Shown here: positions 16,775 to 26,321 of the stretch, piece after piece | Position numbering within the stretch: position 1 is the stretch's first letter | Layout of the letters: every line of letters starts with the position of its first letter | Assembly (NCBI GenBank): GCA_019057795.1 | Contig: JAHLWS010000047.1 | Span: 1 to 36,825 of the forward strand | Source of the DNA: Promethearchaeota archaeon | GTDB lineage: Archaea; Asgardarchaeota; Lokiarchaeia; Sigyniarchaeales; SOKP01 | Length of the DNA: 36,825 bases | Direction: 5' to 3' | Translations under genes and position numbers: made by a program | The notes under the pieces: model-generated | Told to the model about the DNA's origin: nothing | The model's database searches: none | Seen by the model: only the letters and a program-made list of their open reading frames with translations

Positions 16775-17197
16775 TTAGGCTGGTTCAAAACCTAAATCTA
16801 TTTTTGTTTCACCTTTTAATTCTGTCTCTAAAAATATAGATTTTACTGGCATACCTACGCTAATTGTTTCTGGTTTACTTTCATCTACACCTACTAATTG
16901 ACCACTAACCATTGGTCCTTCGTCAAGCTTAATAACCGAGAAACAATATGGTTTATTTCTATCGTATCCTTTCTCTACAAAAAAAGGTGTACCTACAGTA
17001 ATGCATGTAAAGGCAGCAATTTTGCCTTTTCCTGACATCTCAACCCATTTCATATTAGTTGAATTACATTTTGTGCATAATCTTCTAACAGGTACATATT
17101 GTTCGCCACAATCTTTGCATTTTGAACCCATCAATTTTTTATTACGAATATAATCCAAATAACTTTCTATTGTAAACTCTTTATCTGCTTCTGTCAT
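16775..17197 (-). CDS. DUF35 Zn-ribbon/OB-fold protein (thiolase partner)
   Basis: CKDC ... CTKC, G-x-G-x-I-x-x-FT, KLDEGP and VGMPV. Follows the thiolase directly. ATG at 17197 sits after SD GAGGTG. Confidence 0.9.
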   Translation of the reverse strand: MTEADKEFTIESYLDYIRNKKLMGSKCKDCGEQYVPVRRLCTKCNSTNMKWVEMSGKGKIAAFTCITVGTPFFVEKGYDRNKPYCFSVIKLDEGPMVSGQLVGVDESKPETISVGMPVKSIFLETELKGETKIDLGFEPA

Positions 17198-17211
17198 TTT
17201 TCTTTTCACCT

Positions 17212-18471
17212 CTATTTTTCATAAATATGAACCACGCATGTACCACCAGAGCCACCTAAATTATGTGTCATAGCTCTTTCAACGTCAAATTTTACTTGTC
17301 TGTTTCTCTCAGCAATACCTCGCATCTGTTTAAAAGTTTCTACAGCATGAGCTGCCCCTGTAGCTCCTACTGGATGGCCTTTTGACTTAAGTCCACCAGA
17401 AGTGTTAATTGGGAGACTTCCATCTAGTTTAGTTTCTCCATTTTTTATAGCTTCAACAGCTTTACCTTTCTCGTAAAAACCTAGGTCTTCAATAGCAACA
17501 ATTTCAGCTATAGTAAAACAATCATGTACCTCACAGATTTGAATATCTTTTGGTTTCAGACCGGACATTTCGTACGCTTGCCTTGCTGCTTCTCTTGTAG
17601 CTATAAAACTCGTTAGATTATCTCTATCATGTAATGATAAAGCGGCACTTCCTTGACCAGTACCTGTTATCCAAATTGGAGTATCAGTAAATTTCTTTGC
17701 TACATCGCCAGCCGCTAAAAATAGACATGCTGCGCCATCTGTAATCAAAGAACAATCAAATAATCTTAAAGGAGATGCTATCATTGGGTTCGAAGAACTT
17801 TTAAGAAAGTCAAATTCATCTTTCCAATCGGGAATATCTCTACCTTGTTCTTTATATCTAACTATTTTACTGGCCATCATTTCTTTTATCGATTGTTGCA
17901 TTTGAGCAAAGGGATTTTCTTTCCCATTTTCATGGTTTTTTATTCCAACTCTCATCAAATCTTCCGCTGTAGTCCCATATTTATGGAAATGAGCCGAAGC
18001 AATTGCCGCATAAAGCCCTGGAAATGTTGCCCCTGCGGGATATTCGAAAATGGAGTCGGAGGCTGTAGCTAAAGTGTCGGTGACTAAAGTTGTTGATACT
18101 TCCGTCATACATTCCACTCCGCTTACTGCAATTACATCATGTATGCCTGAGGCAATAGCAATAACCGCTTGTCTTAAGGCAATGCCACTGCTAGCACACG
18201 CACCTTCAAATCTAGAAGCGGGTTTAGGAGTTAATCCAACCAAATTTGCCATCTGAGGGCCTAAATGTCCTTGATGGTTAAATAAATCTGAAGAATAATT
18301 ACCGACATAACACGCGTCAATATCTTTAGGTTCAATACCATTATCTACTGTCTTGACAGCATTTAGCCACGCTTCAACCCACATATCGGGATTTCGTTTA
18401 AGTGGGAAATTTCTTCCAAACTTACACATTCCTGCTCCAACTAAAGCGACTTTTCTCGCTAATTTATTCAT
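17212..18471 (-). CDS. SCP2-type thiolase (acetyl-CoA C-acyltransferase)
   Basis: Motifs EGACASSG, DCSLITDGAA, EVHDCF, KGHPVGATG and HNLGG. Confidence 0.93.
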   Translation of the reverse strand: MNKLARKVALVGAGMCKFGRNFPLKRNPDMWVEAWLNAVKTVDNGIEPKDIDACYVGNYSSDLFNHQGHLGPQMANLVGLTPKPASRFEGACASSGIALRQAVIAIASGIHDVIAVSGVECMTEVSTTLVTDTLATASDSIFEYPAGATFPGLYAAIASAHFHKYGTTAEDLMRVGIKNHENGKENPFAQMQQSIKEMMASKIVRYKEQGRDIPDWKDEFDFLKSSSNPMIASPLRLFDCSLITDGAACLFLAAGDVAKKFTDTPIWITGTGQGSAALSLHDRDNLTSFIATREAARQAYEMSGLKPKDIQICEVHDCFTIAEIVAIEDLGFYEKGKAVEAIKNGETKLDGSLPINTSGGLKSKGHPVGATGAAHAVETFKQMRGIAERNRQVKFDVERAMTHNLGGSGGTCVVHIYEK

Positions 18472-18598
18472 TTTTTTTTTTCACTTTTTTTATTATTAGC
18501 AATTTTATATTAAATTGAATTATTAAGGAATTAAATTTTTCATTCCTATAAAATTGGAACATTAATGTTTTTATCTACTTTTTCATTAATTTATAATT

Positions 18599-19118: not shown

Positions 19119-20279
19119 CTATATCCTTTTCCAGTAAGAATTAATAGAAAGACTATTATCTATTTGGATTTCTATTTCAGCAGTCCATTTATAAGTTTTA
19201 AGCCACAATTTTCCTGGAAACGGTTGCCATCCTTTTATTGGTTGAATGCTAAATGAAATTATATCGCCTACACGGCTAATATAGAATTCTCCGGCAAATA
19301 TACCCTTTCTATCGCCAATACAACAAGAGAATTTACCTTTAATATTCGCATTACTTTTGAGGGTAATTAAATTAGGGATTGCGGGAGAAAATTCAAAAGA
19401 AATAATATGACCAACCTCATCTTCTCCTGAAATCATTTTTATTTCGTAATAACCACCATTGTTTAAAACTTTGTATGATAAATTCTCTTTTTTTACATCC
19501 ATATTAGCGGGATCTATTAATATTGAATTTAAACGCCCACTATAGGTATTATTCCAATTTCCAATAATCGGTTCTAAGGAGTAGTGTACTAAATAAACAT
19601 ACATACCGTTCATTCGAACTGGCATTTCAACTGGTTTCCTTAAAAATCCATGAATTTTTATAAAAATTTCCGTATCTTTTTTGAATACCATACCAAATTC
19701 GTTGAGATATACTATTGGAAAATACTGTGGCTTTTTGCTAGCGACACCGATGGGAGTTAACATCGCAGCTAATTCTCTTCCAGGCATATTTTCCTTAATT
19801 TTAAATTCGATGTCTTTTTCTAACTTGTCTTTCAAAAATAGATAAGTGTTTAAACCCATATCGTCTGTTTGAAATCTAAAATCAATTTCTTCAAGCTGAT
19901 TAAACGAAACATTAGTCGATAAATCCTCAATCAATTTCTTTCTATGTTCGATAATTGCTTCATTGGTATAATAAATGTCCATCAAGTCATCTTTTCTATA
20001 CATAATTACCATAGGCAATTTTTCACCAGCTATACGAAAAATTTGGAGTTCAATTGCGTAGTAAATAGGATCATCTTCGAAATTAATTAGCATTAAACGA
20101 TCTATATAATCAGTAGTTATGTTAAATGGTGAGAAAATCATATTTTTAGGCGAAGATTCGTAAATTTTTAACGAATTATTTCTTTTACCCAGATATTTGT
20201 GATGATCTACAACGACATCTTTTATCTTTACATTATACCGATTTAAAAACGCTGACGATAATTTCTTTATAACGCCCAT
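19119..20279 (-). CDS. Hypothetical protein, probably co-transcribed with cobO
   Basis: 386-aa ORF starting 20 nt after the cobO stop. No motif recognised. Confidence 0.8.
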   Translation of the reverse strand: MGVIKKLSSAFLNRYNVKIKDVVVDHHKYLGKRNNSLKIYESSPKNMIFSPFNITTDYIDRLMLINFEDDPIYYAIELQIFRIAGEKLPMVIMYRKDDLMDIYYTNEAIIEHRKKLIEDLSTNVSFNQLEEIDFRFQTDDMGLNTYLFLKDKLEKDIEFKIKENMPGRELAAMLTPIGVASKKPQYFPIVYLNEFGMVFKKDTEIFIKIHGFLRKPVEMPVRMNGMYVYLVHYSLEPIIGNWNNTYSGRLNSILIDPANMDVKKENLSYKVLNNGGYYEIKMISGEDEVGHIISFEFSPAIPNLITLKSNANIKGKFSCCIGDRKGIFAGEFYISRVGDIISFSIQPIKGWQPFPGKLWLKTYKWTAEIEIQIDNSLSINSYWKRI

Positions 20280-20299: not shown

Positions 20300-20868
20300 T
20301 TAATATTCAACGCCAAGACGAGCTTTAATCCCTTTTGAAGAATAATAATGCTTGATCATTCTCATCTCAGTGAGCAAATCTGCACGCTCTTTAATTTTAG
20401 GATGCATCTTAGGTCCACCAGTCATAATTAATTCAACTTTTTCAGGTTTATTATCAATCAATTTTAATACATCGTCAACATTTACAATTCCATATTCGAT
20501 AGCAACACCAACTTCGTCAAGAATAACGACATCGTAATCGTCGCTCATAATCACCTTCTCAGCAAACGCCATTCCTTTTTTTCCTTCTTCAAAGTCAATT
20601 TCTCCGGGAGTTGCGATTAAATCTGGCGTTCCAAACTGTTTTAATTCGAAATTTGGAATTCCTTTTACAGCCGTTACTTCCCCATATTGAGGGTATCCTT
20701 TCATAAATTGAATCATATATACTTTAAATCCATGACCTGTAGCCCGAAGGCCTTGTCCTAAAGCCGCAGTGGTCTTGCCTATAGGCATTACTATTGATTT
20801 ATAGCAATTTTACCCCGACCAAAATAAACTTGTACAAGACCAACATTTAATCTTTTTCTTTCGACCAT
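20300..20868 (-). CDS. cobO: Cob(I)alamin adenosyltransferase (CobA/CobO/BtuR), split: exon 1 20868-20810, exon 2 20780-20300 (179 aa joined)
   Basis: Exon 1 encodes MVERKRLNVGLVQVYFGRG(K). Exon 2 encodes GKTTAALG ... IQFMKG ... VILDE ... ELIMTG ... ADLLTEM ... H ... G-x-x-AR-x-GVEY. Joining them gives the family P-loop VYFGRGKGKTTAALG. Confidence 0.92.
20781..20809 (-). other. Candidate 29-nt bulge-helix-bulge (tRNA-endonuclease type) intron in the cobO mRNA
   Basis: The mRNA reads GGGU-AA^A-AUUGCUAU-AAAUCA-AUAGUAAU-GCCU-AU^A-GGC. That gives an 8-bp inner stem, a 4-bp central helix GGGU/GCCU and two 3-nt bulges. Removing the insert restores the frame, and the insert carries in-frame TAG TAA. 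Confidence 0.8.
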
Positions 20869-25190: not shown

Positions 25191-25445
25191 AATATTATAT
25201 CTTATAAGTTAAATTCAAATTGATTTATAATACGTATATAATGAATAATAATTATTAATATCTTTAAAATTATATCAAAAATCCATAAGACAGGTATGAG
25301 AAATCCCGTTCTTTTTCAATTATTTACTCAGAATTTTTCCTTAAATTGAAAATGCAATAAAAAAGAATAAATAAATAAGTTTTTAAATAAAACAAAAATT
25401 GTTTCTAAATATTGTTTTAATATCGAAAAGTCAATATTCTATGAA

Positions 25446-26321
25446 GTGAGGAGATCAAAAATTCGAAAAAGTAAATTAATGACATTAGACGATGCAATTT
25501 CTACTTATGTTCAAAATGGTGATCTAGTTGGTTTTGGGGGACTTTCGTTTTGGAGAAAACCGATAGAAGCATGTAGAGAGATAATTAGACAAGAGAAAAA
25601 GGACTTATCTCTTTGCACTTTTGTTGGAGGGATTGAAATTGATATGCTTGTAGCTGCAGGTTGTGCGTCTCAAGTGAGAGCCAGTTTCGTAGGAATGGAA
25701 ATTTTTGGTATGGCTCCAAATTATAGGAAAGCTGTTGAGTCCAGAGCGATAAAAATTTCTGAAGAAAGTGAAGCTTCTATCGCTTTAGGATTAAGAGCAT
25801 CCTATTTGAAAGTGCCTTTCATGCCTTTAAAAGGTATTATAGGAACTGATATGCCAAAAGTAAGAAATGATATTAAACAATTTAAAGATCCCTTGGGCTC
25901 AGATACTGAGCTAATGGCATTGCCTAAAATAGATTTGGATGTGGCTATCTTACATGTTCCTTATGCAGATGAATATGGAAATGGAAATATTGCTGGAGCT
26001 GTTTGGATGGATGACGATATGGCAAAAACCGCTAAAAAAACGATTATAATAACGGAAAAATTAGTCGAAACAGAGGATATTAGGTATTTACCAGGGAAAG
26101 CGCAATTACCAATGCAAACAACAACCGCGGTAGTTAAGATCCCTTTCGGAGCACACCCTACAAGTTGTTACCCCTTCTATACATTCGATCCCCTTCATAT
26201 TCAAGCATATATAAAAACAGATTTTAAAAATTATAAAGAGAAATATATTACTGGAAAAAATTCAGCTCAATATTTAGAGGAAGCTGGAGGAGTTCAAACT
26301 ATTTTAAATATAATATTATAG
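25446..26321 (+). CDS. CoA-transferase-fold alpha subunit (GctA/AibA/IpdA-like)
   Basis: Motifs SKLMTLDDAI, GD-x-V-x-FGG, IDMLVAAG, VPFMP-x-x-G-x-x-GTD, DVAILH-x-x-x-AD-x-x-GN and PFGAHPTSC. The start is uncertain (GTG 25446, ATT 25461 or ATG 25479). Confidence 0.88.
   Translation: MRRSKIRKSKLMTLDDAISTYVQNGDLVGFGGLSFWRKPIEACREIIRQEKKDLSLCTFVGGIEIDMLVAAGCASQVRASFVGMEIFGMAPNYRKAVESRAIKISEESEASIALGLRASYLKVPFMPLKGIIGTDMPKVRNDIKQFKDPLGSDTELMALPKIDLDVAILHVPYADEYGNGNIAGAVWMDDDMAKTAKKTIIITEKLVETEDIRYLPGKAQLPMQTTTAVVKIPFGAHPTSCYPFYTFDPLHIQAYIKTDFKNYKEKYITGKNSAQYLEEAGGVQTILNIIL

What the first reader, a model, noticed from the sequence alone, without database searches (positions are those of the whole stretch)
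20781..20809. Candidate tRNA-endonuclease-type (BHB/BHL) intron inside a protein-coding gene, splitting the ATP-binding P-loop of cobO
Seen in sequence: on the minus strand, ATG 20868 reads MVERKRLNVGLVQVYFGRGK, then 29 extra nt with in-frame TAG TAA, then GKTTAALG and an otherwise intact CobO/BtuR. The RNA is GGUCG GGGU AAA AUUGCUAU AAAUCA AUAGUAAU GCCU AUA GGCAAGACC. It has an 8-bp inner stem (one G-U) with a 6-nt loop and a 4-bp central helix GGGU/GCCU (two G-U), each strand followed by a 3-nt bulge (AAA, AUA). The outer exon-exon helix is imperfect (GUC/GGC or GGUC/GACC), so this is a relaxed BHB/BHL. Established knowledge: archaeal EndA cuts after the second nt of each bulge. Applying that rule gives GGU AA + A GGC AAG, i.e. 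G-K-G-K, restoring both the frame and the G-x-G-K-G-K-T-T motif (179 aa). The best-known archaeal mRNA intron, in crenarchaeal cbf5, also sits at a catalytic motif. Inference: this is a spliced mRNA intron in a metabolic gene of a probable Asgard archaeon. I know of no such case in cobO. Gene callers miss it because an ATG inside the insert gives a truncated ORF.
Basis: partly seen in the sequence, partly recalled or inferred. Interest (0 to 1): 0.95.

Follow-up and report, generated by a model that had tools for sequence, protein, structure and literature searches.

The report
tRNA-type intron splitting Asgard cobO
The only vitamin-B12 adenosyltransferase gene (cobO) found in this Loki-type Asgard archaeon is cut in two by a 29-base insert shaped like a tRNA intron; comparison with over 100 related loci indicates that it is cut out of the messenger RNA, which in print is known for only two other archaeal genes.

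Summary
On the minus strand, cobO (PF02572) is interrupted at 20781-20809, between the K and the G of its P-loop GRGK|GKTT. The insert is 29 nt and carries in-frame TAG and TAA.

- Same-site inserts of 29-33 nt occur in 18 of 81 related species genomes and in 31 metagenome contigs. All are Promethearchaeota.
- Intron-less alleles read exactly the predicted junction.
- One allele (AAU...AGA) restores the lysine codon only if each 3-nt bulge is cut after its second base.
- In 34 distinct alleles the central 4-bp helix is 98.5% paired and the 8-bp intron stem 95% paired. Four pairs show compensatory changes; shifted controls pair 31-48%.
- Both exons are under the same purifying selection as in intron-less genes (exon 1 pN/pS 0.16 against 0.13).
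- The genome encodes an alpha/beta EndA pair with a crenarchaeal-type loop, and RtcB.

The 3' site has only a weak outer helix, so this is the relaxed HBh' form.

The intron's distribution is patchy. Its sequence type conflicts with the gene tree, and in some relatives a free-standing LAGLIDADG gene sits next to intron-bearing cobO, which hints at mobility.

I read similar inserts in nadE, elf1, acs, a chelatase gene and rpl11 of the same genome. This scan has reported such mRNA introns before on other DNA.

The parts
20810..20868 (-). cobO exon 1: ATG 20868 through the first two bases of the Lys codon. It encodes MVERKRLNVGLVQVYFGRG plus AA of K.
   Evidence: Exon 1 pN/pS is 0.16 in intron-bearing alleles and 0.13 in intron-less ones.
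20781..20809 (-). 29-nt BHB-type intron, with in-frame TAG and TAA.
   Evidence: Intron-less alleles read GGN AAR GGN AAR at this point. Allele L107 fixes the cuts at AA|N and NN|A.
20300..20780 (-). cobO exon 2: the last base of the Lys codon, then GKTTAALG... to the stop at 20300-20302.
   Evidence: Pfam PF02572 positions 14-172 of 172. pN/pS 0.21.
20812..20815 (-). Central helix H, 5' strand GGGU. It is exonic: third base of the Arg codon, then GG and the third base of the Gly codon.
   Evidence: 98.5% of cells paired with 20783-20786 across 34 alleles. RNAalifold predicts the same helix.
20809..20811 (-). 5' bulge AAA. The cut is inferred after 20810.
   Evidence: The bulge is 3 nt in all 34 alleles. 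The junction is fixed by L107.
20801..20808 (-). Intron stem h', 5' strand AUUGCUAU.
   Evidence: 95.2% paired; 4 pairs have compensatory double changes.
20795..20800 (-). Intron loop AAAUCA. Its length varies from 6 to 10 nt among alleles.
20787..20794 (-). Intron stem h', 3' strand AUAGUAAU. It contains the in-frame UAG UAA.
20783..20786 (-). Central helix H, 3' strand GCCU (intronic).
20780..20782 (-). 3' bulge AUA. The cut is inferred after 20781; A 20780 completes the Lys codon.
20817..20819 (-). Weak outer exon helix h, 5' strand GUC. It pairs with GGC at 20777-20779 and leaves G 20816 unpaired.
   Evidence: 85% of cells paired and no double changes. RNAalifold prefers an alternative, UUUUG with YAARA.
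20777..20779 (-). Weak outer exon helix h, 3' strand GGC (the Gly codon of exon 2).

Best explanation
The 29 nt at 20781-20809 are a bulge-helix-bulge (BHB) intron of the relaxed HBh' type inside the cobO pre-mRNA.

The 5' exon bases GGGU pair with GCCU at the 3' end of the intron to form the 4-bp central helix. An 8-bp intron hairpin closes the 5' bulge (AAA). The 3' bulge (AUA) is closed only by a weak exon-exon helix.

The organism's heteromeric (alpha-beta)2 splicing endonuclease cuts after the second base of each bulge. RtcB then joins GGU AA to A GGC AAG. This restores the Lys codon, the reading frame and the Walker-A loop GRGKGKTT of a 179-aa ATP:corrinoid adenosyltransferase.

Shown here: the anatomy, its conservation and covariation, the exact junction (from intron-less alleles and from one diagnostic allele), selection on both exons, and the presence of the enzymes.

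Inferred: that cutting and ligation happen in the cell, and that EndA and RtcB are the agents.

The intron itself probably does nothing for the cell. It looks like a tolerated, sometimes laterally moving element that persists because this lineage splices such inserts efficiently.
For: 1. Recurrence at one site. Inserts of 29, 30, 31, 32 or 33 nt sit at the same position in:
- 9 of 21 same-genus genomes;
- 18 of 81 species genomes;
- 31 metagenome contigs.
These come from many independent assemblies.

2. Junction. All 63 intron-less alleles read GGN-AAR-GGN-AAR at the site. Allele L107 has AAU before the insert and AGA at its end, so it yields Lys only if cut as AA|U ... AG|A.

3. Structure. 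On 34 distinct alleles 94.1% of cells are paired (H 98.5%, h' 95.2%). Four pairs and 24 cells show changes on both sides. None of 500 shuffles reaches the observed covariation score, and slid controls pair 31-48% (for the first 17 alleles). RNAalifold finds the same H and h' without being told.

4. Length classes. The lengths fall in all three classes modulo 3, and every allele carries an in-frame stop. No single frameshift or read-through would work for all of them, whereas excision would.

5. Selection. pN/pS is 0.16 for exon 1 and 0.21 for exon 2 in intron-bearing alleles, against 0.13 and 0.24 in intron-less ones. None has an internal stop.

6. Exon synonymous sites that form H are restricted in intron-bearing alleles. 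The Arg third base is G or A in 9 of 9, and the Gly third base is U or C in 9 of 9. In 60 intron-less alleles these positions are mixed.

7. Machinery. There are two EndA paralogues. One resembles the A. pernix catalytic subunit 3P1Z_B (E 4e-34), keeps Tyr/His/Lys and aligns without a gap through the crenarchaeal loop (KPR). The other lacks the catalytic His and is the likely structural subunit. RtcB is present. Asgard EndA has been described as (alpha-beta)2 with the L1 loop that allows relaxed motifs (PMC5829648).

8. Need for the gene. cobO is single-copy and no PduO-type adenosyltransferase (PF01923) was found, in a genome scored 100% complete.

9. Same genome, other genes. nadE is split at NAD_synthase profile position 145 by a 30-nt insert that my own scan picked up as fitting the hBHBh' geometry (outer helix 3 bp or more, 4-bp central helix, two 3-nt bulges, inner stem 4 bp or more). 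Its second piece has no start codon nearby. elf1 has a 32-nt canonical insert whose removal restores CPNCG. acs, a ChlI/ChlD-type chelatase gene and rpl11 are also interrupted.
Against: - No RNA evidence. The four runs laid on the region have no contig across the junction and no joint.
- The single-sequence fold is not significant, and the minimum-energy fold uses a competing GCC/GGC hairpin 3.1 kcal/mol below the BHB conformer.
- The 3' bulge lacks a convincing outer helix: 85% paired, no covariation, and one extra unpaired G.
- The alleles are related, so the pairing statistics overstate independence.
- An in-frame NUG start lies three codons before exon 2 in all alleles, so independent translation of the second piece cannot be excluded from sequence alone.
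Confidence: 0.85

Rival explanations
1. Split gene. The insert is never removed. A peptide of about 25 aa (strand beta-1 plus GRGK) and a 162-aa protein starting at the NUG inside the insert are translated separately, by stop-start coupling at TAATG, and they assemble into an active enzyme.
For: TAA overlaps ATG in this window. An in-frame ATG, GTG or TTG lies three codons before exon 2 in all 34 alleles. Purifying selection on exon 1 would fit this reading too.
Against: - The NUG follows from the structure: U46 and G47 are paired bases.
- This reading gives no role to the conserved exon-intron helix, the two 3-nt bulges or the compensatory changes.
- The P-loop would be severed between K and G.
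- The read-through tail of the first peptide is not conserved.
- In nadE of the same genome the downstream piece has no start codon near the insert.
Confidence: 0.04
2. Translational recoding. The ribosome hops from GGY before the insert to GGY after it (as in T4 gene 60), or it frameshifts or reads through the stop.
For: Gly GGY codons flank the insert in all alleles, and a hairpin and a stop lie in the gap.
Against: - A GGY-to-GGY hop would delete K-G from a motif that is GRGKGKTT in all 63 intron-less alleles.
- The stop is not adjacent to the take-off codon.
- Insert lengths of 29 to 33 nt fall in all three frames, so no frameshift fits all alleles.
- A -1 shift would insert about 10 residues into the P-loop.
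- Allele L107 needs the AA|A junction to encode Lys.
Confidence: 0.03
3. Disabling insertion. cobO is a pseudogene in these lineages, or is on its way to becoming one.
For: The gene as written cannot make a full-length protein. The distribution of the insert is patchy.
Against: - pN/pS of both exons equals that of intron-less genes, and none of the 18 alleles has a further lesion.
- The insert persists across CobO divergence of up to about 29% with its structure conserved.
- No alternative adenosyltransferase was found in the genome.
Confidence: 0.03
4. EndA cuts the site but the exons are not rejoined productively. The BHB would then be an mRNA-decay or off-switch element rather than an intron.
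For: Yeast TSEN cleaves mRNAs for decay (PMC10485636). A competing hairpin could modulate BHB formation.
Against: With a single cobO copy, selection on exon 1 equal to that in intron-less genes requires a full-length product. The cut positions are placed exactly where ligation restores the codon. RtcB is present.
Confidence: 0.04
5. Assembly or sequencing artefact.
For: None was found.
Against: The insert is present, with lineage-specific variants, in dozens of independent assemblies from different studies.
Confidence: 0.005

Closest known systems
BHB intron of the cbf5 pre-mRNA in Desulfurococcales and Sulfolobales (Watanabe 2002; Yoshinari 2006; Yokobori 2009, PMC2738675)
   Same: A short intron inside a coding sequence, with a relaxed BHB. 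The host has an (alpha-beta)2 EndA. Distribution is patchy, with inferred lineage-specific loss. Gene callers miss it.
   Different: - A different gene (a metabolic P-loop enzyme) and a different phylum (Asgard/Promethearchaeota).
- Splicing of cbf5 was shown experimentally; here it is inferred.
- Here the intron type conflicts with the gene tree, and a free-standing LAGLIDADG gene is linked to it in some relatives.
- Several other genes of the same genome carry such inserts.
EndA-processed intron in the HVO_1309 mRNA of Haloferax volcanii (PMC7714728, as summarised in PMC10485636)
   Same: An archaeal mRNA cut by the tRNA splicing endonuclease at a BHB, with the spliced RNA the major product.
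   Different: I did not read the primary paper for the position of that intron in the mRNA. That host has an alpha2-type EndA with strict BHB requirements.
tRNA introns of Asgard archaea (bioRxiv 10.64898/2026.10.13.758758; PMC5829648)
   Same: The same presumed enzymes and the same BHB logic. Those introns also show many gains and a patchy distribution.
   Different: The substrate is an mRNA, and the exon half of the motif is made of codons. Codon third positions are constrained by pairing.
Unconventional HAC1/XBP1 mRNA splicing in eukaryotes (IRE1 cut, RtcB or Trl1 ligation); from my own knowledge and PMC8718801
   Same: It works alike: structure-defined endonucleolytic cuts in an mRNA, then ligation by a tRNA ligase that changes the reading frame.
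   Different: The nuclease (IRE1) and the motif (twin stem-loops) differ. That system is a regulated stress response; no regulation is shown here.
Collaborative homing of a free-standing homing endonuclease with an endonuclease-less intron in phages
   Same: In some relatives a LAGLIDADG gene lies about 140-220 bp from the intron insertion site, and it was seen only next to intron-bearing cobO.
   Different: Those introns are self-splicing group I introns. Here the intron is a 29-33 nt BHB intron. The target of the endonuclease is unknown, and this window has no such gene.

Membership tests
Archaeal BHB intron (spliced by EndA and RtcB) | A 4-bp central helix formed between one exon and the far end of the intron | tested here: met
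   GGGU pairs with GCCU. 98.5% of cells are paired in 34 alleles, with G-U to G-C or A-U changes. RNAalifold predicts it.
Archaeal BHB intron (spliced by EndA and RtcB) | A 3-nt bulge at the 5' splice site, closed by H and an intron helix h' | tested here: met
   The bulge is AAA (AAU in one allele) in all alleles. h' has 8 bp, is 95.2% paired, and 4 of its pairs show compensatory changes.
Archaeal BHB intron (spliced by EndA and RtcB) | A 3-nt bulge at the 3' splice site, closed by an exon-exon helix h (strict hBHBh') | tested here: inconclusive
   The bulge is 3 nt only if GUC/GGC forms with an extra unpaired G. That helix is 85% paired with no covariation. RNAalifold instead gives a 4x5 internal loop. 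This fits the relaxed HBh' class, not the strict one.
Archaeal BHB intron (spliced by EndA and RtcB) | Cutting after the second base of each bulge gives a functional, in-frame junction | tested here: met
   The result is GRGKGKTT, identical to all 63 intron-less alleles. L107 requires exactly these cuts. The motif aligns with the GNGKGKTT of solved CobA structures 4HUT and 1G5R.
Archaeal BHB intron (spliced by EndA and RtcB) | The host encodes a splicing endonuclease able to accept relaxed motifs, and an RtcB ligase | tested here: met
   A catalytic EndA with the crenarchaeal-type loop, a His-less paralogue, and RtcB. The link between loop and specificity comes from PMC5829648 and PMC3241643.
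Archaeal BHB intron (spliced by EndA and RtcB) | Spliced mRNA and excised (circular) intron observed | not testable with these tools
   One search for runs and one laying of reads were allowed. No contig crosses the junction.
Programmed ribosomal frameshift | A constant frame relation between the two ORFs and a slippery site | tested here: not met
   Insert lengths of 29, 30, 31, 32 and 33 nt give all three frame relations. There is no X XXY YYZ heptamer.
Translational bypass (T4 gene 60 type) | Matched take-off and landing codons, with a stop directly after take-off, giving the conserved protein | tested here: not met
   GGY codons flank the gap, but a hop would delete K-G from an invariant motif, and the next codon is AAA, not a stop.
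Pseudogene | Relaxed selection and further lesions | tested here: not met
   pN/pS is 0.16 and 0.21, against 0.13 and 0.24 in intact genes, and there are no extra stops.
Homing-endonuclease-assisted mobile intron | An endonuclease gene inside or beside the intron, and co-conversion of the flanks | tested here: inconclusive
   This window has none: the upstream gene encodes a 4Fe-4S protein.

A LAGLIDADG gene (PF14528) lies beside cobO in 2 of 18 intron-bearing and 0 of 63 intron-less genome loci. It also lies beside cobO in 10 of 31 intron-bearing metagenome contigs. All 3 family genomes that hold the orthologue have it next to an intron-bearing cobO.

Cleavage specificity is untested.

The most novel reading that the evidence does not exclude
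The cobO intron is one member of a population of mobile BHB mini-introns that have colonised protein-coding genes of Promethearchaeota. I read such inserts in rpl11, elf1, nadE, acs and a chelatase gene of this genome alone. Messenger-RNA splicing by the tRNA endonuclease would then be a routine and essential step of gene expression in these close relatives of eukaryotes. The cobO intron would spread between lineages by recombination, helped by a free-standing LAGLIDADG endonuclease that cuts intron-less P-loop alleles (collaborative homing), which has not been described for archaea or for BHB introns.
Probability: 0.3. Interest if true: 0.92.

Novelty: new member of a known kind. Interest (0 to 1): 0.85.

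Why it matters
In the papers I could search, EndA-dependent splicing of an archaeal mRNA is documented for cbf5 and HVO_1309 only. A 2023 review notes that more such cases probably remain to be discovered (PMC10485636).

A conserved, covarying intron in a metabolic gene of an Asgard archaeon extends the phenomenon to a new phylum and a new class of gene. Similar inserts in an essential ribosomal protein gene and in other genes of the same genome add to this.

Practical consequences:
- Gene callers truncate or split such genes, so metabolic reconstructions of Asgard genomes (here, B12 activation) are systematically wrong at these loci.
- Comparative pipelines could recover these genes with a BHB-aware step.

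Conceptually, it shows protein genes in pieces, dependent on RNA cutting and rejoining before translation, in the prokaryotic lineage closest to eukaryotes. It also offers a tractable case, with intron-plus and intron-minus alleles and a linked endonuclease gene, for studying how such introns spread.

Tried and rejected
- RNA evidence. Six runs held small shares of a 10-kb stretch around cobO. In the four I laid, only a probable DNA run touches cobO, and its contig stops at 20789. There were no joints and no cover of the junction, so nothing follows either way.
- Single-sequence folding. It is not significant.
- Genome-wide scans for further mRNA introns. BHB geometry plus joinable ORFs gave no enrichment over random positions.
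  - Adding a codon-usage filter left many false positives from antisense shadow frames.
  - After correcting for those, there is an excess: 5777 against 5051 expected, or 402 against 333 for strict motifs. It could reflect composition at gene junctions.
  - A paralogue-spanning test passed random joins as often as BHB joins, 0.62% each.
  - The scans recovered cobO as a positive control and found nadE, but they cannot give a count.
- hppA lead. The H_PPase match found lies in an uninterrupted 738-aa frame.
- rpl11. I could read the two interruptions but could not fit the first one to canonical BHB geometry by hand.
- Co-conversion. Between sister alleles L085 (intron) and L108 (none), six differences cluster within -10 to +12 of the site, against about 2 expected. 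The pair is 10% diverged overall, so this is only suggestive.
- LAGLIDADG in the genus. A genus-level search found only 31-41% identical paralogues elsewhere in the genomes.
- The tree is the quick search, not the finished careful one.

Full report
**What is in the sequence.**
On the minus strand an ORF starts at ATG 20868 and reads MVERKRLNVGLVQVYFGRGK. It then runs into IAINQ, TAG, TAA. A second ORF starts at an ATG inside the insert (20788). Its 162 residues match the ATP:corrinoid adenosyltransferase family PF02572 from profile position 14 to the end (E 2.9e-47).

An intron-less relative matches the family from position 2. It aligns with solved Salmonella CobA so that GRGKGKTT lies on the enzyme's GNGKGKTT loop. 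The window's gene is therefore broken between the K and the G of GRGK|GKTT by 29 nt, at 20781-20809.

Each 3-nt bulge lies 3' of its strand of the 4-bp helix, which is the polarity of a canonical archaeal tRNA intron (established knowledge).

**Is it more than chance?**
Not on this sequence alone. The fold has a z-score of -1.28. The minimum-energy structure (-14.3 kcal/mol) uses a competing GCC/GGC hairpin, while the BHB conformer scores -11.2 kcal/mol. The case rests on relatives.

**Relatives.**
The window is contig C47 of a 4.95-Mb genome scored 100% complete. Titles of related records call these organisms Promethearchaeota, the Loki-type Asgard archaea.
- Among same-genus genomes with a full cobO match, 9 of 21 carry an insert at the same site.
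- Among 81 species-level loci, 18 do.
- A pattern scan of metagenome contigs added 31 more.

Insert lengths are 29, 30, 31, 32 and 33 nt, and every insert has an in-frame stop.

All 63 intron-less alleles read GGN AAR GGN AAR across the site, which is the junction the BHB rule predicts. One allele resolves the remaining one-base ambiguity. L107 has AAU before the insert and AGA at its end, so a lysine codon arises only from AA|U ... AG|A, a cut after the second base of each bulge.

**Structure.**
- In 34 distinct alleles 94.1% of base-pair cells are standard pairs: central helix 98.5%, intron stem 95.2%.
- Four pairs show changes on both sides, in 24 cells.
- None of 500 column shuffles reaches the observed covariation score.
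- Sliding the partners by 1-3 columns drops pairing to 31-48% (for the first 17 alleles).
- RNAalifold recovers the same two helices on its own.

The outer exon helix is weak. GUC/GGC is 85% paired, shows no covariation and leaves an extra unpaired G. The motif is therefore the relaxed HBh' form. By the literature this form needs an (alpha-beta)2 or epsilon2 endonuclease with an extra loop (PMC5829648, PMC3241643).

**Selection.**
Exon 1 (17 codons) has pN/pS 0.16 in intron-bearing alleles and 0.13 in intron-less ones. Exon 2 has 0.21 and 0.24. No intron-bearing allele has another lesion.

Codon third positions that form the central helix are restricted in intron-bearing alleles. The Arg third base is G or A, and the Gly third base is U or C, in 9 of 9. 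In intron-less alleles they are free.

cobO is single-copy, and no PduO-type adenosyltransferase was found in the genome. These are working genes, and exon 1 is read in its frame.

**Machinery.**
The genome has two EndA paralogues.
- One (200 aa) resembles the Aeropyrum pernix subunit 3P1Z_B (E 4e-34). It keeps the catalytic Tyr, His and Lys, and aligns without a gap through the crenarchaeal loop with its KPR.
- The other (201 aa) has Ser in place of the catalytic His, as expected of a structural subunit.

RtcB is present. This matches the published description of Asgard EndA as (alpha-beta)2 with the L1 loop (PMC5829648; bioRxiv 10.64898/2026.10.13.758758).

**Rivals.**
- Frameshifting cannot serve inserts of all three length classes.
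- A gene-60-type hop between the flanking GGY codons would delete two residues of an invariant motif.
- A pseudogene is excluded by selection.
- An artefact is excluded by dozens of independent assemblies.
- The one rival that selection does not exclude is a split protein, translated from the NUG that lies three codons before exon 2 in every allele. That NUG is made of paired bases. The rival also leaves the conserved exon-intron helix, the bulges and the covariation unexplained, and it would sever the P-loop.

I put 0.85 on RNA-level excision by EndA and ligation by RtcB. The missing piece is RNA. The runs I could lay on the region do not cover the junction.

**History of the intron.**
On a quick CobO tree the intron label needs 10 changes, at least 5 of them forced by well-supported branches. 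It occurs on both sides of the deepest split.

All the introns are evidently homologous, but their sequence types do not follow the gene tree. The own-type stems (AUUGCUAU/AUAGUAAU, GCCU, AUA) recur unchanged in alleles whose CobO is only 71-77% identical. In those alleles the loop is longer, giving 33 nt. Closer relatives of the window carry diverged stems, and a sister of one 33-nt allele carries the other intron type. This points to lateral replacement or spread by recombination as well as to losses.

Its start lies about 140-220 bp from the insertion site.
- It is present in 2 of 18 intron-bearing and 0 of 63 intron-less genome loci.
- It is present in 10 of 31 intron-bearing metagenome contigs, which were ascertained on the intron.
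- In 135 genomes of the family the orthologue occurs in three, each time next to an intron-bearing cobO. Two of the three copies carry an internal stop.

This is suggestive of collaborative homing, not proof. The window itself has no such gene.

**The same genome has more such inserts.**
- My own scan found nadE. Its two pieces match NAD_synthase profile positions 4-145 and 145-242. They are separated by a 30-nt insert that met the scan's hBHBh' criteria. An in-frame stop precedes the second piece and no start codon lies near it.
- Testing earlier notes, I read a 32-nt canonical insert in elf1. Cutting it by the same rule restores the zinc-ribbon CPNCG.
- A 30-nt insert sits in the WQ-SETGG motif of acs.
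- A 32-nt insert splits a ChlI/ChlD-type chelatase gene.
- Two inserts flank a micro-exon in the GPPIGPAVGPTGIN region of the rpl11 gene; my single family search found only this one copy.
- An hppA note was not confirmed.

My genome-wide scans lacked the power to give a count.

**Novelty.**
The kind is known: cbf5 in Crenarchaeota (PMC2738675) and HVO_1309 in Haloferax (PMC10485636). I found no paper describing such introns in cobO, or in protein genes of Asgard archaea.

Earlier notes of this scan report the same cobO intron in other genomes, and BHB introns in other archaeal protein genes. Within the scan, therefore, this is a recurring discovery rather than a first.

Noticed in passing
G000 C69:3647-3676 (-), locus L117: nadE (NAD synthase) is split by a 30-nt in-frame insert with a stop. 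The insert met my scan's hBHBh' criteria. The two pieces match Pfam profile positions 4-145 and 145-242 of 242. The second piece has no nearby start codon.
   Followed up: yes
G000 C70:~101310-101440 (+), locus L120: elf1 carries a 32-nt insert with a canonical hBHBh' (CUUGC/GUGGG, CCAA/UUGG, bulges ACA and AUU). Cutting after the second bulge base restores F-T-C-P-N-C-G-E-K.
   Followed up: partly
G000 C75:~67845-67875, locus L119; G000 C46:54632-54675 (-), locus L118: Acetyl-CoA synthetase is split by a 30-nt in-frame insert with TAA in the WQ-SETGG motif. A ChlI/ChlD-type chelatase gene is split by a 32-nt frameshifting insert. The Pfam domains are divided between the pieces.
   Followed up: partly
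G000 C73:~108700-108960 (-), locus L116:1700-1980: The rpl11 gene is interrupted twice around a micro-exon of about 30 nt that encodes GPAVGPTGIN; my single family search found no other copy. I could not fit the first insert to canonical BHB geometry by hand.
   Followed up: partly
Loci L091, L107, L140, L157, L166, L179, L185, L200, L204, L209, L223, L231, L253-L255: A free-standing LAGLIDADG endonuclease gene of about 433 aa (PF14528) lies divergent from intron-bearing cobO, starting about 140-220 bp from the intron site. Copies are 52-93% identical to one another. Two of the three genome copies have an internal stop. Paralogues at about 35% identity occur elsewhere in G000 (C65, C78, C43, C54).
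   Followed up: partly
Loci L006, L010 (cobO start region): Some relatives have no ATG, GTG or TTG between the upstream in-frame TAA and the P-loop. The frame begins TGC ATC ATT AGA AAA AGA, so cobO there may start at ATT or ATC.
   Followed up: no
window 17100-18500 and 25400-26000: Metatranscriptome contigs at 90-99% identity and depth 25-60 cover these stretches in runs X3 and X4, whereas they do not cover cobO. Genes of this lineage are therefore present in RNA libraries of study P2.
   Followed up: no
window 19119-20279 (-): The 386-aa ORF directly downstream of cobO has no Pfam match at E 0.01.
   Followed up: no
alignment A2, columns 29-38: Every one of the 34 intron alleles has an in-frame stop within 6-8 codons of the 5' splice site, including the 30- and 33-nt alleles that would otherwise be readable through. 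This may be selected to prevent read-through products.
   Followed up: no
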